Assembly (NCBI GenBank): GCA_964394965.1
Contig: CAYMZV010000002.1
Span: 1-46,693 of the forward strand
Length of the DNA stretch: 46,693 bases
DNA from: an uncultured Chryseobacterium sp.
Lineage (GTDB): Bacteria > Bacteroidota > Bacteroidia > Palsa-965
Direction of reading: 5' to 3'
The notes beneath the pieces are model-generated. The model was given only the letters and a program-made list of their open reading frames with translations, made no database searches and was not told the DNA's origin. The translations under genes were made by a program, and so were the position numbers. This document shows positions 13,711-46,693 of this stretch, piece by piece (the stretch's first letter is position 1; each line of letters starts with the position of its first letter).

Positions 13711-14175
13711 ATGAAAACCGAAAAAATAAAAATTTTCCTCGTTGATGACGATGCACTTTTTCTAAAATCACTGGAAATCGATTTTCTCCAACATGCAGAT
13801 TTTACCATTGAGACTTTTGCAACCGGTGAGCTTTGCATGAAGAGCCTGTCACACTCCCCCGATGTAATCATTCTCGATTACCATCTTGATGGCATTGTGA
13901 AAAATGCGATGAATGGCATTGAAGCGTTGGACAGGATAAAAAAATTCAATCCCGATATTCCGGTGGTGATGTTATCTTCCCAGTACAAGGTCGAGCTACA
14001 TGAAAACTGCATGCAACACCAGGCTTTTGTTTATGCGATAAAGGATGAAACCACATTCATGCAGCTGCAAAAAATCATTTCATCCATTTTCCCGAACAAA
14101 AAAAACGGGAAAGAAATCGAACTGGTGTATGGCGAGGATGCCATTCCCTTTCAACTGTCGATCATCCGGTGCTGA
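13711..14175 (+). CDS. Stand-alone receiver domain protein (paralog of 27827..28258)
   Basis: KIFLVDDDALFLKSLEIDF, VIILDYHLDG (acceptor Asp) and VVMLSSQ are present. The two paralogs are co-linear for about the first 125 residues by eye. The C-terminal tail diverges after an A8 run near 14088. Confidence 0.8.
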   Translation: MKTEKIKIFLVDDDALFLKSLEIDFLQHADFTIETFATGELCMKSLSHSPDVIILDYHLDGIVKNAMNGIEALDRIKKFNPDIPVVMLSSQYKVELHENCMQHQAFVYAIKDETTFMQLQKIISSIFPNKKNGKEIELVYGEDAIPFQLSIIRC

Positions 14176-14177
14176 TT

Positions 14178-15044
14178 TCATTTGCGGATGATTCCTTCAA
14201 GGAATTTTCTCTCTTTCAATAAATAGCAACTGCCTTCCGCAAGAATGCTCACGCTCAGGTTTTCCATCACGATTGCGGTGGAATCATTCACCACATCAAT
14301 GTTGGTTGTGCTTATTTTGTTTCCATCGATCAGGATAACCATTCCTGATCCAATACATTCGGCACGATTTCCTTCGGAAATAATCAACGCAGTGTCTTCA
14401 CCCAATCCGATGCCCAAGCACGAACGGTTCAACACAACCGCATGCGCCAATCTCGCAAAACGTCCGCGCTTGATGAAATGCGTATCAACAACAACACCAT
14501 TGATCAAGCCGAAACCCTTCGCAATTTCAATATCACCCTTGTAAAGCGCCTCACGGATCAAACCACCTCCAATGATGGTTTCGGGTATGGCCATTGCTCC
14601 GGCACTTGTTCCGCCAACAATAAAATTCTTATCGGAATAATATTTGCGTGAAATGGTTTTCAATAATTCCGTTTCTCCGATCAGTGAAACAAGTTTGTTC
14701 TGATCGCCGCCTGTAAAAAAAACAGCGTGTGCCCCCTGTATACGTTTGATTGCAATGGGATCGTGTGCATCTTCCCTGTTTTCCACTTTTATGATTCCTA
14801 CCTGCGTAAAACCTTCGCGTTTGTAGGAATCAATATAAAGCGCTTCCATTTCTTTCGGTATGGAAGAAGCCGAAGCTATAATTTCTATGATGTGATGCGT
14901 TCGTGGAATTTCCGATATGAGCGTACCCAAGATTTCGAAGTGGGTTTGAGATTCTTTCTTCCTATGGATGGTAAGATTTTCTCCGGCGATTTCACCTTTA
15001 TACTCATGCCCACCGATGATCAATAATTTTCCTTGAGGTATCAT
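14178..15044 (-). CDS. Cyanophycinase-like peptidase (family S51)
   Basis: LLIIGGHEYKGE, FFTGGDQNKL, GGTSAGAMA (nucleophile Ser) and VVDTHFIKRGRFARL match cyanophycinase motifs. Confidence 0.85.
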   Translation of the reverse strand: MIPQGKLLIIGGHEYKGEIAGENLTIHRKKESQTHFEILGTLISEIPRTHHIIEIIASASSIPKEMEALYIDSYKREGFTQVGIIKVENREDAHDPIAIKRIQGAHAVFFTGGDQNKLVSLIGETELLKTISRKYYSDKNFIVGGTSAGAMAIPETIIGGGLIREALYKGDIEIAKGFGLINGVVVDTHFIKRGRFARLAHAVVLNRSCLGIGLGEDTALIISEGNRAECIGSGMVILIDGNKISTTNIDVVNDSTAIVMENLSVSILAEGSCYLLKERKFLEGIIRK

Positions 15045-15045
15045 G

Positions 15046-16308
15046 TCATGAATGCGATTTGATTAATTCCGTAATCTTTTCAAGTCCCATTTTTATGTTT
15101 CCCTCTTCAGGCCCAAATGAAAAACGAACATGGCGATTGAATGCCGAAGCCTTTTTCGGTTGGCCGGGGTGAATGTCGAACATATAACCAGGCACACAAA
15201 TCACTTTTCGTTGCAGCGCTTCCTTGAAAAAACGGTCCGCATCATTTAATCCTGAAGGCAGTTGACTGATATCGGCCCAGATATAAAATGTGCTGTTGGC
15301 ATCGGAAGAACAAATCACCCCGTTTTTCCGAAGGGAATTCAGCATGATATTCTTTTTCCGGCTGAAAACTTTCCGCAGTGCGTGGGACTCCTTATCCACC
15401 CTTTCCGCTTCAAACAATTGCAGTGCCGCCCTTTGAATGGGCAAACTCGGTCCGCCATCAATTCCGCTTGCCACCCTTCCCAAATCATCAATGATATTTT
15501 TCGGTCCAATAACCCAAGCCAATCGCCAACCCGGATAACGAAAGGATTTCGTCAAGCCATCCACAATCAGCACCTGATCGGAATTCACATCGTCAATGAA
15601 TTCCGCAGAAGATACGGGCGCGTTTGCCGGATTCCCGTTCTCATAAATGAAGTGCGAATAAACCTCATCGACAATAAGTGTGCAGTTGTGTTTTTTCACA
15701 ACCTTCACATATTCATCCAATTCATCTCCCTTGATTACATGGCCAGTCGGATTGCAGGGATTGCTCAATAAAAAAGCATCGAGGTTGGATTTTTCAATCG
15801 CCTCGGCAAATTCGGTTGGACGCAATGAATAATTGTTTTCCCATTTTGTGGGAATGCAAACGGGAATGATGCGTTCCAATTGATAGTTGATCAGGTCTTC
15901 ATACGCCGGATATTCGGGAACCTTGTAACCCAACCGTATCGATCCGACAATTGAAAAAATCCGCGTGAGTGCAAGACGACCGCCCATGGCAATGCTTACA
16001 TTCTCGAAAGTGTATTTTGAAATTTTATTTTTGCGGTAAAGCCGGTTGTAATGGTCTGCAATTGTTTTTCTCAACAGTTCCATGCCATTCAACGGACCAT
16101 ACCTGTCATCGTCGGGTTCGATTGTAAATTCCTTTATTCTGGCCGGAGCGCCTTCCATTTCTCCCACCTCGGGTTCGCCTTGTCCCAAGTTCGCCCATTC
16201 CGGATTACCAGCATGAAAGCCGAGCTTGGCGGCTTCGTCCATCACCCAAATGACTCCAATGTCGCGCATTTCATTGAACACATTTTTTGTTTTCATTTCC
16301 TGTTTCAT
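15046..16308 (-). CDS. PLP-dependent aminotransferase, class I/II
   Basis: LSNPCNPTG, DEVYSHF and GLTKSFRYPGWRLAW (Schiff-base Lys) are present. The start overlaps the upstream stop (ATGA at 16305..16308). Confidence 0.85.
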   Translation of the reverse strand: MKQEMKTKNVFNEMRDIGVIWVMDEAAKLGFHAGNPEWANLGQGEPEVGEMEGAPARIKEFTIEPDDDRYGPLNGMELLRKTIADHYNRLYRKNKISKYTFENVSIAMGGRLALTRIFSIVGSIRLGYKVPEYPAYEDLINYQLERIIPVCIPTKWENNYSLRPTEFAEAIEKSNLDAFLLSNPCNPTGHVIKGDELDEYVKVVKKHNCTLIVDEVYSHFIYENGNPANAPVSSAEFIDDVNSDQVLIVDGLTKSFRYPGWRLAWVIGPKNIIDDLGRVASGIDGGPSLPIQRAALQLFEAERVDKESHALRKVFSRKKNIMLNSLRKNGVICSSDANSTFYIWADISQLPSGLNDADRFFKEALQRKVICVPGYMFDIHPGQPKKASAFNRHVRFSFGPEEGNIKMGLEKITELIKSHS

Positions 16309-16766
16309 TTCGATCCTGTGTTATCATTCCGTTTTTTCATCTCATATCCAAGTATTACCAAAAAATAAAAAGTGACATCACCTGTAATTTTTCCAATCAG
16401 AATGCCAAGCGTGAAATTTTTCAGAAGGAGGGGAAACAGATACATGAAAAAAGGCCGAACCAATAAACCGTCAATGATTCCGGCAGGACCGAATTCCAAA
16501 ACAATATTCCTGATGATTCCGAAAAAATCGGAAAAGGAAAAAACCTGTTTGCCGGTTTTCTTTTTTTCAACCGCAACCGATATGTTTTGAAAAAAAATGG
16601 TCGAATAAAAACCGATTGCCTCTCCAAGTGAACCTGCATAAGCCACCAGGATCGGGTTGCCGGAAAAAAAATGGGTTACGCTTGCCACGCCAATTGCCGT
16701 TATTGTTCCAACAATTTCCGCAGGCAAATACCGTTTCAGCCATTCCTTTCCTTTTTGTTTTATCAT
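16305..16766 (-). CDS. Small polytopic membrane protein, function unknown
   Basis: About four hydrophobic segments (IVGTITAIGVASVTHFF, FFMYLFPLLL, VTFYFLVILGY). Trimmed to Met 16766, which removes the overlap with the PSD-like gene. Confidence 0.55.
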   Translation of the reverse strand: MIKQKGKEWLKRYLPAEIVGTITAIGVASVTHFFSGNPILVAYAGSLGEAIGFYSTIFFQNISVAVEKKKTGKQVFSFSDFFGIIRNIVLEFGPAGIIDGLLVRPFFMYLFPLLLKNFTLGILIGKITGDVTFYFLVILGYEMKKRNDNTGSK

Positions 16767-16782
16767 TCTTGTTTCACCTTGT

Positions 16783-17928
16783 CTAAATAACAGGATAGGC
16801 TTGCGCAATCTTCGTTCCCATTTTATAATGCAATGTCCGTTGCGCCGTAAAACTCACGTTGCTTGACGCTTCAAACAGCACAATGATATCGGAACCGCCG
16901 AATTGAAAATAAGACAACTCTTCCCCTTTGCGAACCGTAACACCCACTTCAGCCGTAATGACAACGGAAGATACCTGACACATTCCTATCGGGAGAACCG
17001 CCACCAAACCGATTGGCGTATCCAACACAATCAATCCGCGGCTTTGTGCAAATTGGTAACCCGCAACATCCAACGAATCGAAATTCCTTTTCAGTTTCAG
17101 GGAATGTTTTCCGGATTTTTCTTTATCGGGCACAGCTTCCACTTCCAAATAAACCTGTCCCTGAATTGTCCTGGCTTCCAAAACCTTTCCACCAACCGGT
17201 GCATGTTGACGATGATAATCGGTAGGGCCGAGATAGGAATGCATGAACATTCCATTTTCAAAACGGTTTTTATATGGACTTCCCTCGAGCAATTCACTCA
17301 CTTTCCAATTCAGGTTTTTAACCGTTACATGAGAATCCGCACGTATTTCCCATTGCCCTCCGAATGTGGAATCGGCGGGCATGACGATGACCGATTGATC
17401 GGCAATTGCTGCAACAGGACGAAATCCGGGTTTGAAATGTCTTGCAAAAATCTGATTGAAAGTTCTCCATCCACCGTGAGGGCGCGTATATTCTTTCATA
17501 TTGTAATTCGGCGAATCGTAAAAAGTCTGTTCCGATTCTTTTGTCAATGATGCAGGTGTATCGAGAAAATCTCCAATCACATTTGCATATTTCACGAGCC
17601 ACTTTGAAAACGGTGTAAGTGGCAGCGCGTTGTTGTGTGGAATGATCTTATTCTGCAATGAAAAAACAGGTTCCTGATCGGCGATGAAATAAAATGCGCT
17701 GAGATGATCATTTACATTCTGTCCGGAAGAAAATTCCGTCGGCACCCAAAAAATGAATTCATTGATCCAATCCAAATACTGATCAAGGTTTTTTACGTCC
17801 GACAAAAACGGGACATTTTTAGCGTGTGCCTTCCTGATTGACTTTTCAAATTTATCTTTCCAATTGTTCGACTTGATCATCTTGATCAATTCTTCGACAA
17901 TGGGATGGTAAGTGTTTTTGGTGGACAT
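16783..17928 (-). CDS. Phosphatidylserine-decarboxylase-family (pyruvoyl-type) protein, long form with an N-terminal PSDC-like domain
   Basis: The C-terminal FQFGGSDIIVLFE matches the PSD self-cleavage GGS/LGST region. The N-terminal HPIVEELIKMIKSNNWKDKFE...LDQYLDWINEF resembles the PSD-associated domain. Confidence 0.75.
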   Translation of the reverse strand: MSTKNTYHPIVEELIKMIKSNNWKDKFEKSIRKAHAKNVPFLSDVKNLDQYLDWINEFIFWVPTEFSSGQNVNDHLSAFYFIADQEPVFSLQNKIIPHNNALPLTPFSKWLVKYANVIGDFLDTPASLTKESEQTFYDSPNYNMKEYTRPHGGWRTFNQIFARHFKPGFRPVAAIADQSVIVMPADSTFGGQWEIRADSHVTVKNLNWKVSELLEGSPYKNRFENGMFMHSYLGPTDYHRQHAPVGGKVLEARTIQGQVYLEVEAVPDKEKSGKHSLKLKRNFDSLDVAGYQFAQSRGLIVLDTPIGLVAVLPIGMCQVSSVVITAEVGVTVRKGEELSYFQFGGSDIIVLFEASSNVSFTAQRTLHYKMGTKIAQAYPVI

Positions 17929-17988
17929 ATTGGATGGGGGTTAGTTTTATTTGATTCCATGCAGCTAAGTCGATAGAAGCCTTGTTCA

Positions 17989-18057
17989 TAAAGTTTCACA
18001 CTTCCATTGATGGGAATGTTATACAACTTTGGAAATAAGTTACATGATTCACATGTC
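17989..18057 (-). promoter_or_regulatory. Composite stress-regulon promoter element, copy h (drives 17928 down to 14178)
   Basis: GACATGTGAATCATGTAACTTATTTCCAAAGTTGTATAACA, 20 nt, AAACTTTA. Confidence 0.6.
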
Positions 18058-39016: not shown

Positions 39017-41650
39017 ATGTTTAAACGCCCCGTACCCCTCCTTCTTGTTTTCTTATTTTTCATCAATAGAATCGACGCCCAACAACCGAATTGGCATTTC
39101 ACCGGCTATGGTCCGCATTTCCGTGACTTCAATGCTGTCCAGATCCTAAATACAGGAAGAATAATTGCGGCCGGTGGAAATTTCTACAACGATGCCATCA
39201 CTTCTTTTTTTGTATCGGACGACTCAGCCGCATCTTGGGGAATCGAAGTCGACTCGATCAATGCAGAGATGAATGACATGCACTTCCCAGCAGACAATGC
39301 CGGTTATGCAGTGGGAAACGCGGGAATGTTTTACAAGACAATCGATCAGGGAACCAGTTGGCATCAAATCGCATTGAATGCACCACTGAATTCAAGAAGT
39401 TATTATGGCGTTCATTTTACAAATGCTACAACCGGCGTTGCAGTGGGAGGATACGATACGACACAAACCATCATGCGGACAATTGACGGAGGAGTGAACT
39501 GGACGACGATTGTTGATGCACCCGGACAAATTTTGCGCGATGTCATGTTTACCGATTCGCTCATCGGTTTTGCAGTTGGCGACAGTGGCACAGCATTGAA
39601 AACACACGACGGTGGAATTTCATGGTCAACGTTGACTGTTCCCGCATCGATGAATGTTAGGAATTTCCAATCGGTTTATTTTATCGATTCGCTGATCGGA
39701 TTCATTGCCGGAGGAAATCCATCGAGTGCACACCGCACACTTTTGAAAACCATCGACGGTGGAGTTACATGGAATACGGTTATCGACGTTGTAGGTCCGA
39801 TGGCAAATGTGGTTTATTTTCTCTCTGACAGTGCAGGTTATATAGGAGGGGAAAATGGTTTGTTGCTCTATACTGCCGATCAAGGTTCCACTTGGACTTC
39901 TTTCACGGTCACAGGAAATGATGTGAATCCGATCAACGACATCAACTTTTTGAATGCGAGTTTTGGAATCGCTTCCGGCGTTTATGGTAAAACACTTATT
40001 TATAGGGACACACTCATTCAACCGCCATCGGCAGTCATAAATACAATGCCCATAATCATCAATGCAAACAGTGTAATGATTGATGGCGTTGTAAGTGGGC
40101 ACAATCGACCGACAACAGTTGAGTTCGAATACGGTTTGACGCCATCGTTCGGAACTACACTTGCAATGACACCATCGCTCACGTCGAATAACAATCAGCA
40201 CGATTCTGTTCTGGTAACAGGATTGTTGTTGTCGAATGTTTATTACGGCAGAATCAAAGTCACCAACTCACTTGGATTTGCCTACAGCGGTACGATTCAA
40301 TTCCACACCGATTCGGTGACAGGTCCGAATTTTGATTTTGAAAACTGGAATGATTACAGCAATGAATATCCGCTCAATTGGTTTATTACCGGACCCGTTC
40401 AAAAAGTCCTTTCTTATGATGGAAGTTTTGCAACGAGAATAATTGCCCAAACTACCAATGCACCGGGTGCGTTGTATCGTGCAAATGATACCGGACATGG
40501 CCCTCCGTTTTCCGGGCTTCCGTTTTCCGGCGGCAGACCCGACACCTTGATGTTTTATGCCAAGTACGATGTTGTCCCGAATGATTCCGCTTTGGCTTGG
40601 TTTTTCCTGAGCAGCAATGGAATCAATATTGTCGATACGATCGTGAAGATTCCGGGTTCGAGCGGAGGCTTGTTCCAATTGTTCAAGATCCCGATTCATT
40701 ATACCAGCTTGAATATTCCGGATTCCCTCGGATTGTTATTCGCCAGCTCAGATATTTTCACCGGAAATATTTCCACTGTAAGTGAGATCACAATCGACAA
40801 CATCCAGTTGCACGGATCGAGTACACAACTTCCGAATAGCGACATGGAATCATGGGGTGTTTCAACAAGGAATCATGCGGTTTCATGGTATTCGAATGAT
40901 GACAGCAATTTCAACCCCGAAGATTCTGCCATGGTGAAAAGAAGTACAAATGCATTTTCAGGAAACTATGCATTGATGCTGAGAACCTTTGCAAACACCA
41001 ATCAGCAATACAACAGTGCAAGCATGAAATCGGGACCGAACATTTACGCTCCCGGCCCCGACTTCGCCGTTTTCGCGCGACACACAACATTGAATGGAAT
41101 GTATGAATTGAATACATCCACCAACGACACATTTACGGTAATGGTATCGATGTATAAATTGGGCGTTCAGGTTGGCGGATCTTATGTGAATTTCACCAAT
41201 CACTTTTCCAATTACAGTTTATTCACCGCTCCGATCAATTATTACACCAGTGATGTTCCCGACAGTTGCGCCATCCAGTTTTTCCTCGGAAAAAGGGATA
41301 CGACACAATTCGCCGGCAACTCATGGGTGCTGATCGACGATCTTGGTTTTGACGGAGTATTGACATCGATTGATTCATCAACCATTAAAAGCCCTGTCGT
41401 TGAGATGAACCTTTTCCCGAATCCCGCACAGGACCATGTCAACATCCAGCTTCCCGATGCTTTTGCAAAACAAACGGGAGAAATAAAGATTACCGTTTTC
41501 GACATGAGCGGAAAAGAATGCCTTTCCAAAACGGAAACCAATAGGAATCAAATCCTGTTGGACGTAAGCGGCCTGAATGATCAACTGTATTTTATGGAAA
41601 TCAAAAACGAAAACCAATCCCTCTACTCCAAATTAATAATTTCACGATGA
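39017..41650 (+). CDS. BNR/Asp-box beta-propeller protein with a T9SS type-A C-terminal sorting domain
   Basis: Five Asp-box repeats (DQGTSWHQ, DGGVNWTT, DGGISWST, DGGVTWNT, DQGSTWTS). The C-terminus reads NLFPNPAQDHVNIQLP...ITVFDMSGKEC...DQLYFMEIKNENQSLYSKLIISR. Confidence 0.8.
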   Translation: MFKRPVPLLLVFLFFINRIDAQQPNWHFTGYGPHFRDFNAVQILNTGRIIAAGGNFYNDAITSFFVSDDSAASWGIEVDSINAEMNDMHFPADNAGYAVGNAGMFYKTIDQGTSWHQIALNAPLNSRSYYGVHFTNATTGVAVGGYDTTQTIMRTIDGGVNWTTIVDAPGQILRDVMFTDSLIGFAVGDSGTALKTHDGGISWSTLTVPASMNVRNFQSVYFIDSLIGFIAGGNPSSAHRTLLKTIDGGVTWNTVIDVVGPMANVVYFLSDSAGYIGGENGLLLYTADQGSTWTSFTVTGNDVNPINDINFLNASFGIASGVYGKTLIYRDTLIQPPSAVINTMPIIINANSVMIDGVVSGHNRPTTVEFEYGLTPSFGTTLAMTPSLTSNNNQHDSVLVTGLLLSNVYYGRIKVTNSLGFAYSGTIQFHTDSVTGPNFDFENWNDYSNEYPLNWFITGPVQKVLSYDGSFATRIIAQTTNAPGALYRANDTGHGPPFSGLPFSGGRPDTLMFYAKYDVVPNDSALAWFFLSSNGINIVDTIVKIPGSSGGLFQLFKIPIHYTSLNIPDSLGLLFASSDIFTGNISTVSEITIDNIQLHGSSTQLPNSDMESWGVSTRNHAVSWYSNDDSNFNPEDSAMVKRSTNAFSGNYALMLRTFANTNQQYNSASMKSGPNIYAPGPDFAVFARHTTLNGMYELNTSTNDTFTVMVSMYKLGVQVGGSYVNFTNHFSNYSLFTAPINYYTSDVPDSCAIQFFLGKRDTTQFAGNSWVLIDDLGFDGVLTSIDSSTIKSPVVEMNLFPNPAQDHVNIQLPDAFAKQTGEIKITVFDMSGKECLSKTETNRNQILLDVSGLNDQLYFMEIKNENQSLYSKLIISR

Positions 41651-44600
41651 AAACCCCAATGAAAAAATTACTACTGCTTGCATTCGTTTTTTCAGCATTT
41701 ATCGGTAATGCCCAAACTGCATCCAGCGGTCCTTCGGGTGTGACCGTTACTTCCAATCCAACGGATTCAAGAGCCCTCGGATGGGCGGGTGGAAAAACAA
41801 ACTCGTATACCAATCCCTCATGGCCCGCTTACAATTCGCCATGTTATGTTTATGGATTCAGGGATACATTGTATCAAGCGATCAATGGAAATAATAACCA
41901 GCCGCCGAATCTGGGTTGCGGTTCAATGTCCAATCTCGTTTACAATGCTGCACAATCGAATCTTGCAGGAGGAATCCTCGTTTACTTGGGAACAACGAAT
42001 TATTCCTATGTACCGAATTGGATGGGCGGATATGAGGTTACAACACTGAACGTCCGTGCAACCATCACGATCACCAATGGCGCTGCTGCTCCAATTCCGA
42101 TTCTCAGTATCGGTACAGCAAAGTTGATCAGGGCAAATCAGAATTTCAATGTAAAATTCCTGATGGAAACATTCAGCCCGGGAGATGGAACCTATTTTGC
42201 CGATGGTCCAAACCAATGGGTTCCTTCCATTACACTTTACGATGATCTTCATACCGATCCAAGCACTTCCATTTGCACCTCATTCGCTTATGGTTCGTAT
42301 TATACTTTTTCTGTCAATGCAACAGCGACAAATACCGGTCCCTATTGTCAGGGTGCTACCATCAGTCTTGCAAGTACAGGCGTTGCACAAACCGGTGGAC
42401 CTGTAACCTATGCTTGGAGCGGTCCTTCCTATTCGAATGCAACACAAAACCCTACAATTTCAAATTCCACTACAGCAATGACGGGTACCTATACAGTTCA
42501 GGTAACCGATAATATCGGATGCGTTGGATCTGCAAGTACTACGGTAACTGTAAATCCATTGCCAACCGTAACTGCCAATTCAACTGCAGTTGCTGTTTGT
42601 GCCGGTAACAGTGTAACACTCACAGGTGGTGGTGCAACTTCTTACACTTGGTCAGGAGGTGTAACAAATGGAGTTCCGTTTGTTCCCGTTTCAACTGCAA
42701 CTTATACAGTAACGGGAACGAGTGCGGCCGGTTGTACAAACACTGCAATGACAACTGTAACTGTAAATCCTGTGCCAACCGTAACGGCCACTTCAACTGC
42801 TGCCGCTGTTTGTGCAGGTAACAGTGTAACACTCACAGGTGGTGGTGCAACTTCTTACACTTGGTCGGGCGGTGTAACGGATGGAAATGCTTTCGTTCCA
42901 CTTTCAACTCAGACTTATACAGTAACAGGGACAGGTGCCAACGGTTGCACAAATACTGCAATGACAACTGTAACTGTAAATCCATTACCGACTGTAACGG
43001 CCACTTCAACCGCCACTGCAGTTTGTACCGGCGGCAGTGTAACACTCACAGGTGGCGGTGCAACTTCTTACTCCTGGTCAGGCGGTGTAACGGACGGAAA
43101 TTCTTTTGTTCCACTTTCAACACAAACTTATACTGTGACAGGAACAGGTGCCAATGGTTGCACAAATACTGCAATGATAATGGTAACTGTAAATCCGCTT
43201 CCTACTGTAACCGCGACTTCAACAGCAGCTGCTGTTTGTGCCGGTAACAGCGTAACACTCACAGGTGGCGGTGCAACTTCTTACTCTTGGTCCGGTGGTG
43301 TAACGGATGGAAATGCTTTCGTTCCACTTACAACACAGACTTACACAGTGACAGGAACTGACGGAAACAATTGTTCAAACACGGCAATGACAACCGTAAC
43401 GGTAAATCCACTTCCAACTGTAACGGCAACTTCAACCGCCGCTGCTGTTTGTGCAGGCAACAGTGTAACACTCACAGGTGGTGGTGCAACTTCTTATTCT
43501 TGGTCGGGTGGTGTAACGGATGGAAATTCTTTTGTCCCGGTTTCAACTCAGACTTACACAGTGACAGGAACTGACGGAAACAATTGTTCCAACACGGCAA
43601 TGACAACGGTTACTGTAAATCCGCTTCCTACTGTAACGGCAACTTCAACCGCTGCCGCTGTTTGTGCAGGTAACAGCGTAACACTCACAGGTGGTGGTGC
43701 AACTTCTTATTCTTGGTCGGGTGGTGTGACGGATGGAAATTCTTTTGTTCCACTTACAACCCAGACTTACACAGTGACAGGGACAGACGGAAACAATTGT
43801 TCCAACACTGCAATGACAACCGTTACTGTAAATCCATTGCCAACTGTAACTGCAACTTCAACCGCTTCTGCTGTTTGTGCAGGTAACAGTGTAACACTCA
43901 CAGGTGGTGGTGCAACTTCTTACTCTTGGTCGGGTGGTGTAACGGATGGAAATGCTTTTGTTCCACTTTCAACACAGACATACACAGTGACAGGAACAGA
44001 CGGAAATTCCTGTTCAAATACAGCAATGATAACGGTAACGGTAAATCCTTTACCAGCTGTAACCGCAACTTCAACCGCTGCCGCTGTTTGCGCCGGTAAC
44101 AGCGTAACACTCACAGGCGGTGGTGCAACTTCCTACTCTTGGTCGGGTGGTGTAACGGATGGAAATTCTTTTGTTCCACTTGCAACTCAGACTTACACAG
44201 TGACAGGAACTGACGGAAACAATTGTTCCAACACTGCAATGACAACAGTTACTGTAAATCCATTGCCAACTGTAACGGCAACATCAACCGCCGCTGCTGT
44301 TTGTGCCGGTAACAGCGTAACACTCACAGGTGGCGGTGCAACTTCTTACTCTTGGTCCGGTGGTGTAACGGATGGAAATGCTTTCGTTCCACTTACAACA
44401 CAGACTTACACAGTGACAGGAACTGACGGAAACAATTGTTCAAACACGGCAATGACAACCGTAACGGTAAATCCACTTCCAACTGTAACGGCAACTTCAA
44501 CCGCCGCTGCTGTTTGTGCAGGCAACAGTGTAACACTCACAGGTGGTGGTGCAACTTCTTATTCTTGGTCGGGTGGTGTAACGGATGGAAATTCTTTTGT

Positions 44601-46693
44601 CCCGGTTTCAACTCAGACTTACACAGTGACAGGAACTGACGGAAACAATTGTTCCAACACGGCAATGACAACGGTTACTGTAAATCCGCTTCCTACTGTA
44701 ACGGCAACTTCAACCGCTGCCGCTGTTTGTGCAGGTAACAGCGTAACACTCACAGGTGGTGGTGCAACTTCTTATTCTTGGTCGGGTGGTGTGACGGATG
44801 GAAATTCTTTTGTTCCACTTACAACCCAGACTTACACAGTGACAGGGACAGACGGAAACAATTGTTCCAACACTGCAATGACAACCGTTACTGTAAATCC
44901 ATTGCCAACTGTAACTGCAACTTCAACCGCTTCTGCTGTTTGTGCAGGTAACAGTGTAACACTCACAGGTGGTGGTGCAACTTCTTACTCTTGGTCGGGT
45001 GGTGTAACGGATGGAAATGCTTTTGTTCCACTTTCAACACAGACATACACAGTGACAGGAACAGACGGAAATTCCTGTTCAAATACAGCAATGATAACGG
45101 TAACGGTAAATCCTTTACCAGCTGTAACCGCAACTTCAACCGCTGCCGCTGTTTGCGCCGGTAACAGCGTAACACTCACAGGCGGTGGTGCAACTTCCTA
45201 CTCTTGGTCGGGTGGTGTAACGGATGGAAATTCTTTTGTTCCACTTGCAACTCAGACTTACACAGTGACAGGAACTGACGGAAACAATTGTTCCAACACT
45301 GCAATGACAACAGTAACTGTAAATCCATTGCCAACTGTAACGGCAACAGCAACTGCGGCTGCAGTTTGTGAAGGAAACAGTGTAACACTCACGGGCGGTG
45401 GTGCTACTTCCTATTCTTGGACAGGTGGCGTAATAGATGCTGTATCATTCATTCCACCAGCGACACAGACTTATACGGTAACCGGAACAGATGGAAACAA
45501 TTGCACAAACACGGCAACAATAACCGTTACTGTAAATCCATTGCCAACTGTAACTGCAACTTCAACTGCCGCCGCTGTTTGCGCCGGTAACAGTGTAACA
45601 CTCACGGGCGGCGGTGCAACTTCCTATTCCTGGTCGGGTGGTGTAACTGACGGAAATTCTTTTGTTCCACTTACAACTCAGACATATACAGTGACAGGAA
45701 CAGACGGAAATAATTGTTCAAACACTGCAATGACAACTGTAACTGTAAATCCATTGCCAACTGTAACTGCAACTTCAACTGCCGCCGCTGTTTGTGCCGG
45801 TAACAGCGTTACACTCACGGGTGGTGGTGCAACTTCCTATTCCTGGTCGGGTGGAGTAATAGATGCTGTATCATTCATTCCAGCCTCGACACTGACTTAT
45901 ACAGTGACAGGAACAGATGCAAACGGTTGCACGAATACTGCAATGACAACAGTAACTGTCAATCCGAATCCGATTGTAAACGTCGGTCCGGATCAAGCCA
46001 TTTGCAGCGGAACGATCCTGTTGGATGCGGGCAATGTAGGTGACACCTATGCATGGAACGATGCAAGCACTGGACAAACACTTACAGCTGCGTCTTCCGG
46101 TATTTATTGGGTGGATGTAACGAATGCTTCCGGATGTACAACACGTGATAGCGCAACGATTACCATTAATGCAAATCCTGTTGTCAATCTTGGTTTGGAT
46201 ATCACCCAGTGCGGTGGAACCGTAACACTTGACGCAGGCAATGCAGGTGCAACTTATACATGGAGCGATGGCAGCACATCACAAATGCTTACCGTTTCTT
46301 CAAGCGGTACTTATTTTGTCACCGATACTTTGGCAGGCGGATGTTATGCTTCCGATACCATAGTTGTAGTCATCAACAGCGTTCCAAGTGTTGATCTGGG
46401 ATTGGATGTGACACAATGCGGTGGATCAGTAACACTTAATGCCGGTAATGCGGGATCAACTTATCTCTGGAGCAATGGCGCAACTACACAGTCAACTACC
46501 GTTTCCACTTCAGCAACTTATTATGTTGATGTAACAAACGCCAGTGGTTGTACCGGAAGCGATACTGTTTCAGTAACCATCAATACACTTCCTACAGTAA
46601 CAGCCACTGCCACAAGCACAGTAGTTTGTGTTGACGATGCGTCAGTTGCATTGACAGGAACACCAGCGGGTGGAACCTGGAGTGGTGCAGGCG
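41647..46693 (+). CDS. Giant repeat adhesin-like surface protein; partial, runs off the right edge
   Basis: Not in the ORF track. ATG 41647 overlaps the upstream stop (ATGA). The signal peptide is MKTPMKKLLLLAFVFSAFIGNAQ. Sixteen 71-aa Ig-like units follow (NPLPTVTATSTAAAVCAGNSVTLTGGGATSYSWSGGVTDGNSFVPLTTQTYTVTGTDGNNCSNTAMTTVTV). A second repeat type comes after them (CGGTVTLDAGNAGATYTWSDGST). Confidence 0.8.
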   Translation, partial: MKTPMKKLLLLAFVFSAFIGNAQTASSGPSGVTVTSNPTDSRALGWAGGKTNSYTNPSWPAYNSPCYVYGFRDTLYQAINGNNNQPPNLGCGSMSNLVYNAAQSNLAGGILVYLGTTNYSYVPNWMGGYEVTTLNVRATITITNGAAAPIPILSIGTAKLIRANQNFNVKFLMETFSPGDGTYFADGPNQWVPSITLYDDLHTDPSTSICTSFAYGSYYTFSVNATATNTGPYCQGATISLASTGVAQTGGPVTYAWSGPSYSNATQNPTISNSTTAMTGTYTVQVTDNIGCVGSASTTVTVNPLPTVTANSTAVAVCAGNSVTLTGGGATSYTWSGGVTNGVPFVPVSTATYTVTGTSAAGCTNTAMTTVTVNPVPTVTATSTAAAVCAGNSVTLTGGGATSYTWSGGVTDGNAFVPLSTQTYTVTGTGANGCTNTAMTTVTVNPLPTVTATSTATAVCTGGSVTLTGGGATSYSWSGGVTDGNSFVPLSTQTYTVTGTGANGCTNTAMIMVTVNPLPTVTATSTAAAVCAGNSVTLTGGGATSYSWSGGVTDGNAFVPLTTQTYTVTGTDGNNCSNTAMTTVTVNPLPTVTATSTAAAVCAGNSVTLTGGGATSYSWSGGVTDGNSFVPVSTQTYTVTGTDGNNCSNTAMTTVTVNPLPTVTATSTAAAVCAGNSVTLTGGGATSYSWSGGVTDGNSFVPLTTQTYTVTGTDGNNCSNTAMTTVTVNPLPTVTATSTASAVCAGNSVTLTGGGATSYSWSGGVTDGNAFVPLSTQTYTVTGTDGNSCSNTAMITVTVNPLPAVTATSTAAAVCAGNSVTLTGGGATSYSWSGGVTDGNSFVPLATQTYTVTGTDGNNCSNTAMTTVTVNPLPTVTATSTAAAVCAGNSVTLTGGGATSYSWSGGVTDGNAFVPLTTQTYTVTGTDGNNCSNTAMTTVTVNPLPTVTATSTAAAVCAGNSVTLTGGGATSYSWSGGVTDGNSFVPVSTQTYTVTGTDGNNCSNTAMTTVTVNPLPTVTATSTAAAVCAGNSVTLTGGGATSYSWSGGVTDGNSFVPLTTQTYTVTGTDGNNCSNTAMTTVTVNPLPTVTATSTASAVCAGNSVTLTGGGATSYSWSGGVTDGNAFVPLSTQTYTVTGTDGNSCSNTAMITVTVNPLPAVTATSTAAAVCAGNSVTLTGGGATSYSWSGGVTDGNSFVPLATQTYTVTGTDGNNCSNTAMTTVTVNPLPTVTATATAAAVCEGNSVTLTGGGATSYSWTGGVIDAVSFIPPATQTYTVTGTDGNNCTNTATITVTVNPLPTVTATSTAAAVCAGNSVTLTGGGATSYSWSGGVTDGNSFVPLTTQTYTVTGTDGNNCSNTAMTTVTVNPLPTVTATSTAAAVCAGNSVTLTGGGATSYSWSGGVIDAVSFIPASTLTYTVTGTDANGCTNTAMTTVTVNPNPIVNVGPDQAICSGTILLDAGNVGDTYAWNDASTGQTLTAASSGIYWVDVTNASGCTTRDSATITINANPVVNLGLDITQCGGTVTLDAGNAGATYTWSDGSTSQMLTVSSSGTYFVTDTLAGGCYASDTIVVVINSVPSVDLGLDVTQCGGSVTLNAGNAGSTYLWSNGATTQSTTVSTSATYYVDVTNASGCTGSDTVSVTINTLPTVTATATSTVVCVDDASVALTGTPAGGTWSGAG
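42551..45958 (+). repeat. Sixteen in-frame tandem repeats of 213 bp
   Basis: The unit boundary string GTAAATCC recurs every 213 bp from 42551 to 45959. Confidence 0.9.
43228..45314 (+). repeat. Perfect higher-order duplication of five repeat units, 1022 identical bp at a 1065-bp offset
   Basis: 43228..44249 equals 44293..45314 by spot checks. Three pairs of track ORFs have identical translations: 43371..43574 with 44436..44639, 43898..44110 with 44963..45175, and 43920..44114 with 44985..45179. The first mismatches are at 43227 and 44250. Confidence 0.85.

What the first reader, a model, noticed from the sequence alone, without database searches (positions are those of the whole stretch)
14178..18057. 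A motif-driven four-gene operon couples a PSD-family pyruvoyl decarboxylase, a small membrane protein, an aminotransferase and a cyanophycinase
The genes are almost fused: a 16-nt gap, an ATGA overlap, then a 1-nt gap. The operon lies behind motif copy h.

The decarboxylase is the long PSD form with an N-terminal PSDC-like domain. This branch includes non-lipid amino-acid decarboxylases in fungi, so its substrate need not be phosphatidylserine.

Cyanophycinase releases beta-Asp-Arg dipeptides from cyanophycin, yet no cyanophycin synthetase or isoaspartyl dipeptidase is visible in the window.

The combination suggests either stress-induced mobilisation of a nitrogen polymer or synthesis of a small amine or compatible solute. 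I cannot match the combination to a described pathway.
Basis: partly seen in the sequence, partly recalled or inferred. Interest (0 to 1): 0.6.

Follow-up and report, generated by a model that had tools for sequence, protein, structure and literature searches.

The report
Stress-regulon cyanophycinase–aminotransferase–decarboxylase operon
An uncultured Bacteroidia bacterium keeps, behind a stress-regulon promoter motif, an extra cyanophycinase, an aminotransferase and a soluble "phosphatidylserine-decarboxylase-fold" amino-acid decarboxylase that travel together in related genomes. They probably turn the nitrogen store cyanophycin into an amine under stress, but no substrate has been shown.

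Summary
Four co-directional minus-strand genes, with a 16-nt gap, an ATGA overlap and a 1-nt gap, lie behind a copy of the window's recurring 40-nt motif.

- **Decarboxylase.** It is not the housekeeping PSD, which lies on another contig. Its predicted fold matches the fungal soluble decarboxylases PsiD (Trp) and Ao-ADC1 (Arg) over the full length.
- **S51 protein.** It passes the cyanophycinase model. It forms its own clade, sister to cphA-linked cyanophycinases.
- **Rest of the genome.** cphA, a canonical cphB and IaaA-type isoaspartyl peptidases are encoded elsewhere.
- **Linkage.** AT–S51 is an invariant pair: 15 of 15 metagenome loci where downstream DNA exists. The decarboxylase plus a membrane protein (this 153-aa protein or a DUF155 protein) is a second module. 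The two modules stay linked through at least four arrangements.
- **Co-occurrence.** All three enzymes occur in exactly the same 6 of 61 related genomes.
- **Wider family.** The decarboxylase spans many phyla, mostly without AT or S51. In gut Bacteroidales it sits beside a GadC-like antiporter, which this scan had already noted in three other genomes.

Best reading: stress-induced cyanophycin mobilisation that ends in an amine (GABA or agmatine). Substrates are untested. This is a new variant of known kinds and is moderately interesting.

The parts
18016..18055 (-). Regulon motif copy ('h'): 40-nt core GTGAAT-N-TGTAAC ... GT-N-TAAC, starting 127 nt upstream of the PSD-like ATG
   Evidence: the repeat finder families D14/D15. 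13 copies were aligned. A PWM finds the same motif 79-138 nt upstream of 13 of 30 close PSD-like orthologs and 0 of 71 distant ones.
16783..17928 (-). PsiD/Ao-ADC1-type soluble pyruvoyl decarboxylase of the PSD fold (381 aa). Predicted self-cleavage at G345|S346 in the FGGSD motif; triad D186/H239/S346.
   Evidence: PF02666 at 1.3e-45 but below all PSD equivalog cut-offs. D186, H239, G344 and G345 are invariant and S346 and D347 nearly so in 30 homologs; all six are invariant in the 11 closer ones. The AF2 model (pLDDT 86.5) matches 8x4q and 9jer over the full length.
16305..16766 (-). 153-aa membrane protein of four long helices, of no known family; interchangeable with a DUF155 protein in relatives
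   Evidence: No Pfam or NCBIfam hit even at E=10. Atlas neighbours are only hypothetical Bacteroidota proteins. Four helices in the AF2 model, pLDDT 85.5. Invariant charged residues E17, E49, E91, D99, R104, K126, D130. DUF155 fills the same slot in other loci.
15046..16308 (-). Class I/II PLP aminotransferase (420 aa), nearest to class-Ib aspartate aminotransferases. Lys in TKSF, and Arg (residue 111, GGR) where class-Ib AspATs have GGK.
   Evidence: PF00155 at 8e-39; below all NCBIfam equivalogs. PDB matches are AspAT and aromatic AT. GGR aligns to GGK of 1j32 and 6f77. GGR is invariant in all 24 operon-type orthologs and TKSF in the 22 whose hit reaches that region.
14178..15044 (-). Cytoplasmic cyanophycinase paralog (S51, 288 aa), in a clade distinct from the cphA-linked CphB
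   Evidence: TIGR02069 at 186.9 bits, cut-off 126.6. 1e-35 to cyanophycinase 7uqv. The GTSAG Ser, DTHF His, GEDT Glu, GGDQ and RGRxxRL motifs are kept. The clade has 100/99 support and is sister to S51s lying beside a second cphA. No hydrophobic N-terminal segment.

Best explanation
This is an accessory operon controlled by the stress regulon and built from two modules.

- **Module 1 (AT-S51).** An intracellular cyanophycinase paralog is paired with a class-Ib-like aminotransferase.
- **Module 2.** A soluble, self-cleaving pyruvoyl amino-acid decarboxylase of the PsiD/Ao-ADC1 type is paired with a small membrane protein.

Proposed mechanism; every step after gene identity is inferred.
1. When the regulon fires, the extra cyanophycinase cuts stored cyanophycin into beta-Asp-Arg. 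The polymer is made by the genome's own CphA.
2. The IaaA isoaspartyl peptidase encoded elsewhere frees Asp and Arg.
3. The aminotransferase moves the Asp amino group onto 2-oxoglutarate, giving Glu and oxaloacetate.
4. The decarboxylase converts a free amino acid into its amine and consumes a proton. The amino acid is either the Glu just made (giving GABA) or the released Arg (giving agmatine).
5. The membrane protein exports the amine, or anchors the decarboxylase.

The net effect is fast conversion of a nitrogen store into protective or buffering small molecules during stress.
For: **Gene identities.**
- The S51 protein passes the cyanophycinase equivalog and keeps the catalytic triad and pocket motifs. 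Its clade is sister to cphA-adjacent S51s.
- The PSD-like protein has the D-H-S triad and a GGS cleavage motif. Its model matches two fungal soluble amino-acid decarboxylases over the full length, and E. coli PSD only over the catalytic domain. The fungal enzymes are described in PMC11929908 and PMC12904898.
- A canonical PSD is encoded elsewhere in the genome.

**Substrate supply.** cphA scores 1260 bits. A second cyanophycinase and two IaaA genes are also in the genome. iaaA-cphB-cphA are contiguous in two relatives.

**Functional coupling.**
- AT, the operon-type S51 and the PSD-like gene occur in exactly the same 6 of 61 related genomes.
- AT is followed by S51 in 15 of 15 metagenome loci that extend downstream. 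The PSD-like gene is linked in 12 of 17, in four arrangements.
- A 40-45%-identical PSD-like paralog is also linked to AT-S51-MEM in G020.

**Co-regulation.** The motif lies upstream of 13 of 30 close orthologs. Where the operon is split (L030), PSD and AT each have their own copy.

**Free amino acid as substrate.**
- Orthologs in 5 genomes of other lineages occur without any cyanophycinase.
- In 24 gut Bacteroidales loci the gene is followed by a near-GadC antiporter, 632 bits against a cut-off of 650.
- Three such genomes lack a PLP glutamate decarboxylase.

**Aminotransferase.** It keeps a basic residue (GGR) at the dicarboxylate-binding GGK position of class-Ib AspATs. The role of that position rests on my knowledge of Thermus AspAT Lys109.
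Against: - No enzyme activity is known for any of the four proteins or for close homologs.
- The decarboxylase is only 17-20% identical to PsiD and Ao-ADC1 (25% to E. coli PSD) and is equidistant from all three by sequence. Homology therefore does not give its substrate.
- No isoaspartyl dipeptidase lies in the operon.
- The genome already has an AR-fold ADC-like gene next to an agmatinase, so an extra arginine decarboxylase is not needed for polyamine synthesis.
- cphA is common in this family (26 of 34 genomes). Its presence in every operon genome is therefore weak evidence.
- Two loci have PSD-membrane protein-S51 without AT (L025 and L040).
- Most family members occur without AT or S51.
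- The aminotransferase is below every equivalog cut-off, and its top NCBIfam hit is an arginine-derivative enzyme, GntC.
Confidence: 0.45

Rival explanations
1. Dipeptide-tailoring pathway. The decarboxylase and/or the aminotransferase act directly on beta-Asp-Arg, whose beta-aspartyl part carries a free alpha-amino acid group, as the serine head group of phosphatidylserine does. The product would be beta-alanyl-arginine or an oxaloacetyl-arginine, serving as a compatible solute or signal.
For: It would explain why no isoaspartyl dipeptidase lies in the operon. It would explain why a dedicated cyanophycinase clade is always fused to AT. PSD chemistry works on an amino acid with a bulky side-chain substituent. 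The family keeps the P-x-D-Y-H motif of E. coli PSD rather than the A-Y-H of PsiD.
Against: PSD-like orthologs at 55-65% identity occur in five genomes with no cyanophycinase. They stand alone in most of the 80 loci, or sit beside amino-acid/amine antiporters. The genome has IaaA, and in two relatives iaaA lies next to cphB.
Confidence: 0.1
2. Small-amine or compatible-solute biosynthesis unrelated to cyanophycin. The aminotransferase makes an amino acid from a keto acid, the decarboxylase turns it into an amine, and the S51 protein has shifted to another peptide substrate.
For: AT followed by a decarboxylase is a standard two-step route to amines. The operon S51 is a separate clade, at most 45% identical to the cphA-linked enzymes. 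It is never adjacent to cphA in the loci seen.
Against: The S51 protein scores above the cyanophycinase cut-off. It keeps every motif that the local canonical CphBs have. Its sister clade is cphA-adjacent. All six carrier genomes have cphA.
Confidence: 0.15
3. Stress-induced membrane-lipid remodelling. The PSD-like enzyme decarboxylates a serine- or aspartate-bearing lipid head group at the membrane, docked by the 153-aa or DUF155 membrane protein. AT and S51 are merely co-regulated neighbours.
For: In Bacteroidota the gene is almost always followed by a membrane protein. It belongs to PF02666 and keeps PSD's D-H-S triad. The same regulon drives Mla lipid-transport genes nearby; this comes from an earlier first-reader note and was not checked here.
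Against: A canonical PSD exists in the genome. The fold match to soluble decarboxylases includes the N-terminal helices. No hydrophobic N-terminal segment is present. Gut relatives pair the gene with amino-acid/amine antiporters, an MFS transporter and a porin. AT and S51 co-occur with it strictly, and the linkage survives rearrangements.
Confidence: 0.1
4. No shared pathway: independent stress genes that happen to be packed together in a regulon island.
For: The island holds many unrelated stress genes behind the same motif. The PSD-like gene stands alone in most lineages.
Against: All three enzymes are present or absent together in 61 relatives. The linkage is kept in at least four gene orders and with two different PSD-like subfamilies.
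Confidence: 0.15

Closest known systems
Ao-ADC1, pyruvoyl-dependent arginine decarboxylase of Aspergillus oryzae (PDB 9JER/9JF5; PMC12904898)
   Same: N-terminal helical region plus a PF02666 catalytic domain. Gly-Ser self-cleavage yields a pyruvoyl group. It is soluble, has a free amino-acid substrate and no PSD activity. The Foldseek match covers the whole model (TMq 0.60, 417 columns).
   Different: Only 20% identity, bacterial rather than fungal, and about 100 residues shorter. The active-site strand reads PTDYH here and ADSYH in Ao-ADC1. The substrate here is unknown.
PsiD, L-tryptophan decarboxylase of Psilocybe cubensis (PDB 8X4Q/8ZIA; PMC11929908)
   Same: Best sequence-profile and fold match. 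GGS-type cleavage motif: GGSS in PsiD, GGSD here. F/Y-L ... Y-H active-site strand and G-M pocket loop.
   Different: 17-18% identity. The hydrophobic pocket residues of PsiD are not conserved (V292 aligns to P, A294 to D, T374 to C/A). Pfam's PSDC N-terminal domain is not detected.
CphB/CphE cyanophycinases and the cphA-cphB-iaaA or 'cyanophycin utilisation' clusters (PDB 3EN0, 7UQV, 7UQW; PMC10206079)
   Same: S51 fold, Ser-His-Glu triad, GGDQ and RGRxxRL motifs, and a score above the TIGR02069 cut-off. The genome has the canonical cphA/cphB/iaaA set.
   Different: It forms a separate clade, at most 45% identical to the local CphB. It is not next to cphA, an isoaspartyl dipeptidase or an amino-acid transporter. 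Instead it is fused to an aminotransferase and linked to a pyruvoyl decarboxylase. That combination is absent from the cluster survey and from the full-text search.
Decarboxylase/antiporter acid-resistance modules (GadB-GadC, AdiA-AdiC, pyruvoyl HdcA-HdcP)
   Same: In gut Bacteroidales, orthologs of this decarboxylase sit directly before a near-GadC antiporter. This scan had already noted that in three Muribaculaceae genomes.
   Different: In this window the partner is a 153-aa four-helix protein of no known family, not an APC antiporter. The amino acid would come from an internal polymer rather than from outside the cell.
Bacterial phosphatidylserine decarboxylase (E. coli Psd, PDB 6L06/7CNW)
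   Same: PF02666 catalytic domain, D-H-S triad, DYH motif.
   Different: Below all PSD equivalog cut-offs. It has about 130 extra N-terminal residues. Only the catalytic domain superposes (TMq 0.46). The genome has its own canonical 218-aa PSD.

Membership tests
PSD-fold pyruvoyl enzymes (PF02666) | PF02666 domain above the gathering score | tested here: met
   156 bits against a cut-off of 22
PSD-fold pyruvoyl enzymes (PF02666) | Asp-His-Ser autoprocessing triad and a Gly-Ser cleavage site | tested here: met
   D186 (PAD), H239 (DYH) and G345-S346 (FGGSD) align to E. coli D90, H144 and G253-S254 and to PsiD H296 and G402-S403. D186, H239 and G345 are invariant and S346 at least 90% conserved in 30 homologs.
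Phosphatidylserine decarboxylase proper (EC 4.1.1.65) | Scores above an NCBIfam PSD equivalog cut-off | tested here: not met
   The best hit is 107.8 bits against a cut-off of 371. The paralog on contig C171 passes: 275.6 against 225.
Phosphatidylserine decarboxylase proper (EC 4.1.1.65) | Activity on phosphatidylserine | not testable with these tools
   Needs an enzyme assay
PsiD/Ao-ADC1-type soluble amino-acid decarboxylases | N-terminal helical region packed on the catalytic domain (full-length structural match) | tested here: met
   Foldseek: 8x4q at E 3e-14, TMq 0.60, 388 columns; 9jer at E 2e-13, TMq 0.60, 417 columns. E. coli PSD aligns over 273 columns with TMq 0.46.
PsiD/Ao-ADC1-type soluble amino-acid decarboxylases | Pfam PSDC N-terminal domain (PF12588) detectable by sequence | tested here: not met
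   No Pfam hit for residues 1-150, even at E=10
PsiD/Ao-ADC1-type soluble amino-acid decarboxylases | Free amino acid as substrate | not testable with these tools
   Indirect support only: antiporter neighbours in gut relatives, and orthologs in genomes without cyanophycinase
Cyanophycinase (TIGR02069; CphB/CphE) | Score above the curated equivalog cut-off | tested here: met
   186.9 bits against 126.6
Cyanophycinase (TIGR02069; CphB/CphE) | Ser-His-Glu triad and the conserved pocket (GGDQ, D-x-H, R-x-R-x-x-R) | tested here: met
   GTSAG, VDTHF, GEDT, GGDQ and KRGRFARL are present. Thr replaces Synechocystis Gln173, but the local cphA-linked CphBs also have Ser or Thr there.
Cyanophycinase (TIGR02069; CphB/CphE) | Genomic association with cphA | tested here: inconclusive
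   It is not adjacent to cphA, but all six carrier genomes encode cphA, and the sister clade is cphA-adjacent. cphA is common in this family anyway.
Cyanophycin utilisation or metabolism cluster | An isoaspartyl dipeptidase (IadA/IaaA) and/or cphA within the cluster | tested here: not met
   Neither lies in the operon or the window. IaaA is on C206 and C43, cphA is on C441, and no IadA was found.
Class I/II aminotransferases (PF00155), class-Ib AspAT-like | PF00155 domain and the PLP-binding lysine | tested here: met
   134 bits. The Lys in TKSF aligns to SKTF of 1dju and is invariant in orthologs.
Class I/II aminotransferases (PF00155), class-Ib AspAT-like | Lys of the GGK motif that binds the distal carboxylate | tested here: inconclusive
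   GGR aligns to GGK of 1j32 and 6f77 and is invariant in operon-type orthologs. Arg could serve the same role, but this is untested. The protein is below all AspAT equivalog cut-offs.
Decarboxylase/antiporter module | An adjacent APC-family amino-acid/amine antiporter | tested here: not met
   In this window the neighbour is a 153-aa four-helix protein with no family. The feature is met only in the gut Bacteroidales relatives.

The most novel reading that the evidence does not exclude
Bacteria have an unrecognised, vitamin-B6-independent family of soluble pyruvoyl amino-acid decarboxylases, annotated everywhere as 'phosphatidylserine decarboxylase'. In cold and soil Bacteroidia this family is wired to a dedicated cyanophycinase clade and an aminotransferase. 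Together they would form a stress-triggered route from the nitrogen polymer cyanophycin to a protective amine: GABA, agmatine or a beta-Asp-Arg derivative. That would be a physiological role for cyanophycin beyond nitrogen storage, and a third downstream fate of its breakdown products.
Probability: 0.3. Interest if true: 0.75.

Novelty: new variant of a known kind. Interest (0 to 1): 0.55.

Why it matters
Cyanophycin breakdown is known as cyanophycinase followed by an isoaspartyl dipeptidase. A conserved second cyanophycinase clade hard-wired to an aminotransferase and a decarboxylase, under a stress regulon, would add a new downstream branch and a stress role for the polymer.

The decarboxylase belongs to a large bacterial family: 219 clusters (50% identity) at E ≤ 1e-30, spread over many phyla and including gut Muribaculaceae and Parabacteroides. 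The family is mis-annotated as a lipid enzyme, and its only characterised structural relatives make tryptamine and agmatine. Finding its substrate would therefore matter for microbial amine production in both soil and gut.

All the proteins are small and easy to express, so the hypothesis can be tested directly.

Tried and rejected
Neighbourhoods were taken from the genome search, the fetch from genomes and the search for related loci instead.
- **The search for related loci with the 30-sequence alignment** failed because no stretch was conserved enough. An 11-sequence alignment worked.
- **Membrane protein.** Pfam and NCBIfam gave nothing even at E=10. The atlas gave only hypothetical Bacteroidota clusters. 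A VIA-align wide search of its AF2 model gave only generic helical-bundle matches with Z below 8, so no fold assignment is made. It has no similarity to the DUF155 protein that replaces it.
- **Reading the decarboxylase substrate from pocket residues.** Sequence mapping onto PsiD's published pocket is unreliable in the loops. Model coordinates cannot be accessed, and the review of Ao-ADC1 lists no arginine-binding residues. The attempt was abandoned.
- **Neighbours of the decarboxylase outside Bacteroidota.** 78 flanking proteins were scanned and no family recurred more than 3 times, so they give no pathway hint.
- **Literature.** Searches for the gene combination or for bacterial PsiD-like enzymes returned nothing relevant.
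- **Polyamine-pathway check**. The genome has an AR-fold ADC-like gene plus an agmatinase and no agmatine deiminase. This does not discriminate between the readings.
- **Rejected idea: that the first gene is the cell's PSD**.
- **Rejected idea: that the genome lacks cyanophycin synthesis**.

Full report
**Observation.**
- The region holds four co-directional minus-strand ORFs:
  - a PF02666 protein at 16783-17928 (381 aa);
  - a hydrophobic 153-aa protein at 16305-16766;
  - a PF00155 aminotransferase at 15046-16308;
  - an S51 peptidase at 14178-15044.
- The junctions are as described: 16 nt between the TAG and the next ATG, an ATGA overlap, and one base between TGA and ATG.
- The S51 stop lies 2 nt from the stop of a convergent receiver gene.
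- A copy of the window's recurring motif lies at 17987-18057. Its 40-nt core starts 127 nt before the first ATG.
- A simple scan found no more internal promoter-like or terminator-like sites than in shuffled sequence.

**The first gene is not the cell's phosphatidylserine decarboxylase.**
- It has the PF02666 domain but falls far below every NCBIfam PSD equivalog cut-off.
- The genome carries a second PF02666 gene on contig C171. It is 218 aa long and passes two PSD equivalog cut-offs.
- The window protein keeps the autoprocessing triad (D186, H239, S346) and an FGGSD cleavage motif. These residues are invariant or nearly so across 30 homologs at 32-52% identity.
- By sequence it is equidistant from E. 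coli PSD, Psilocybe PsiD and the 9JER protein.
- An AF2 model (pLDDT 86.5) matches PsiD (8x4q) and the Aspergillus oryzae arginine decarboxylase Ao-ADC1 (9jer/9jf5) over the whole chain, including the N-terminal helices: TMq 0.60 over 388-417 columns. E. coli PSD matches only the catalytic domain: TMq 0.46 over 273 columns.
- PsiD and Ao-ADC1 are soluble pyruvoyl decarboxylases of free Trp and Arg. Ao-ADC1 has no PSD activity (PMC11929908; PMC12904898).
Pfam's PSDC domain, however, is not detectable by sequence.

**The decarboxylase family is large, and mostly independent of the other three genes.**
- A search of the full representative library found 4,240 clusters at E ≤ 1e-3 and 219 at E ≤ 1e-30. 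Close homologs are named 'phosphatidylserine decarboxylase' wherever a name is given.
- In species-representative genomes, 513 loci encode a relative. The best 80 (53-82% identity) come from Bacteroidota, Proteobacteria (Caulobacter, Derxia, Methylobacter, Gallionella), Acidobacteriota, Chloroflexota, Gemmatimonadota and cyanobacteria.
- Only the environmental Bacteroidota members at 69% identity or more have AT and/or S51 nearby.
- In 24 gut Bacteroidales loci, one to three tandem copies are followed by three genes:
  - a 589-aa permease that scores 632 bits against the GadC model TIGR03813 (cut-off 650);
  - an MFS transporter;
  - a porin.
- Earlier agents of this scan reported that same architecture in three other Muribaculaceae genomes; I found it independently.
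- Elsewhere the gene has no recurrent neighbour.
- Five carrier genomes from other lineages have no cyanophycinase at all.
- The family's substrate is therefore a generally available molecule, most simply a free amino acid, and not something specific to cyanophycin.

**The S51 protein is a cyanophycinase paralog.**
- It passes TIGR02069 (186.9 bits against 126.6). It matches the solved cyanophycinases 7uqv, 3en0 and 7uqw at 1e-35 to 1e-30.
- The nucleophile Ser (GTSAG), His (DTHF), Glu (GEDT), GGDQ and the RGRxxRL arginines are all present. The one departure from Synechocystis (Gln173 to Thr) is shared by the local cphA-linked enzymes.
- It has no hydrophobic N-terminus, so it is probably cytoplasmic.
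- Operon-type S51s are 60-80% identical to one another and at most 45% identical to cphA-adjacent CphBs.
- They form a clade with 100/99 support. Its sister is a pair of S51 genes lying just downstream of a second cphA in genome G009.

**The genome can make and finish degrading cyanophycin.**
- It encodes cphA (1260 bits, contig C441), a canonical cyanophycinase at the start of contig C196, and two IaaA-type isoaspartyl peptidases, one of them at the end of contig C206.
- No IadA was found.
- In two sister-genus genomes, iaaA, cphB and cphA are contiguous. The three short contigs here are therefore probably one cluster broken by assembly.

**The genes are functionally coupled.**
- Among 61 related genomes, a PSD-like gene of this type, the AT ortholog and the operon-type S51 are found in exactly the same six: G000, G008, G020, G028, G030 and G032. 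None of the three was found in 53 others with these queries. Kin are not independent, so no statistic is claimed.
- Genome G013 is unpublished.
- A metagenome scan with AT gave 17 orthologous loci. In all 15 that extend downstream, S51 follows AT within 2-10 nt. The PSD-like gene is linked in 12.
- Arrangements seen:
  - PSD-MEM-AT-S51: the window, L027, L028, L124, L125, L127, L131 and L140.
  - PSD-DUF155-AT-S51: L017, L019 and L129.
  - AT-S51 convergent with PSD: L121-L123.
  - AT-S51 facing DUF155-PSD: L133.
  - PSD-DUF155 followed by an inverted AT-S51: L030.
  - A 494-aa insertion after PSD: L032.
  - The two modules on different contigs: G032.
- In G020 a different PSD-like subfamily (40-45% identity, 424 aa) is linked to the same MEM, AT and S51 genes.
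- L025 and L040 lack AT.
- PSD with MEM or DUF155 also occurs alone: L018, L023, L026, L031 and L036.
- The units are therefore [AT-S51] and [decarboxylase plus membrane protein].

**Regulation.**
- A PWM built from the window's 13 motif copies detects the motif 79-138 nt upstream of 13 of 30 PSD-like orthologs at 68% identity or more, and of 0 of 71 more distant ones.
- In L030, where the operon is split, both PSD and AT have their own copy.
- Earlier notes describe the surrounding island as a stress regulon with ice-binding proteins, catalase, Dps and Mla. I did not re-test that.

**The other two proteins.**
- The aminotransferase is nearest to archaeal and bacterial aspartate and aromatic aminotransferases. 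It is below all equivalog cut-offs, and its top NCBIfam hit is GntC.
- It keeps the PLP lysine. At the GGK position of class-Ib AspATs it has an Arg that is invariant in orthologs. From my knowledge of Thermus AspAT Lys109, that position binds the distal carboxylate. This is compatible with Asp/Glu handling but proves nothing.
- The 153-aa protein has four long helices with seven invariant charged residues. It has no family, no informative fold match and no similarity to DUF155.

**Mechanism.**
- Shown: the gene identities at family level, the linkage, the co-occurrence, the motif, and the presence of cphA, cphB and iaaA.
- Inferred: stress induction; hydrolysis of cyanophycin to beta-Asp-Arg by the extra cyanophycinase; IaaA releasing Asp and Arg; transamination of Asp to Glu; decarboxylation of a free amino acid to an amine; and export or anchoring by the membrane protein.
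- Glu to GABA gives a linear pathway. It fits the near-GadC partner in gut relatives and the absence of a PLP glutamate decarboxylase in three such genomes and in this one. The completeness of those gut MAGs is unknown.
- Arg to agmatine fits the Ao-ADC1 precedent and the composition of cyanophycin. However, the genome already has an ADC-like gene next to an agmatinase.
- My rough odds for the substrate are Glu 35%, Arg 25% and something else 40%.

**Novelty.**
- The survey of cyanophycin gene clusters does not mention a decarboxylase at all; 'aminotransferase' occurs once, in a passage that was not shown.
- Full-text searches found no paper that links the gene families or describes bacterial PsiD-like enzymes.
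- The parts belong to known kinds. The combination, and the dedicated S51 clade, are a new variant.

Noticed in passing
L064, L071, L077, L091 and about 20 further loci (gut Muribaculaceae, Parabacteroides, Porphyromonadaceae): One to three tandem copies of the PSD-like decarboxylase are followed by a near-GadC antiporter (632 bits against a cut-off of 650), an MFS transporter and a porin. Three loci also have a 584-aa PLP decarboxylase upstream. Three such genomes lack a PLP glutamate decarboxylase.
   Followed up: partly
L033, L034, L035, L051, L053, L054: The PSD-like gene is immediately next to a second long PSD-fold paralog only 26-31% identical to it (Fluviicola, Acidobacteriaceae, Lysobacterales and a Pyrinomonadaceae-labelled bin).
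   Followed up: no
window 13711-14175 (+) against 14178 (-): The receiver-domain gene ends 2 nt from the S51 stop codon in convergent orientation. In relatives (L017, L019, L129) a receiver gene follows S51 on the same strand, so the receiver seems to belong to the neighbourhood.
   Followed up: partly
G020:C25 (L020 12297-13537): The AT ortholog in this same-genus genome is read through two TGA codons, or a frameshift, near its C-terminus. It may be a pseudogene or an assembly error. Here MEM is on the opposite strand and the PSD-like gene is a 424-aa paralog.
   Followed up: no
L021 (G055:C11 1-17000): A distant S51 (34% identity) and a distant PSD-like gene (31%) lie 4 kb apart among a cold-shock-domain protein, a fatty-acid desaturase, an erythromycin-esterase-like gene and a DUF6629 gene. 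This may be an analogous stress island.
   Followed up: no
own genome contigs C441, C196, C206: cphA fills a 3-kb contig, cphB starts at base 14 of its contig, and iaaA ends 17 nt from its contig's end. In two relatives the three genes are contiguous, so the canonical cyanophycin cluster is probably fragmented by assembly.
   Followed up: partly
L025, L033, L041, L044 (record titles): PSD-like genes at 66-77% identity to the Bacteroidia gene sit in bins labelled Saccharibacteria, Pyrinomonadaceae and Gallionella. This suggests either recent horizontal transfer or mis-binned contigs.
   Followed up: no
L135-L139: AT homologs at about 40% identity, which keep the GGR/GAR and TK motifs, lie on short contigs of about 2 kb. 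Origin unknown.
   Followed up: no
window 42519-46013: Sixteen tandem 213-bp (71-aa) repeats at about 76-85% identity inside a giant open-ended ORF (41647-46692+).
   Followed up: no
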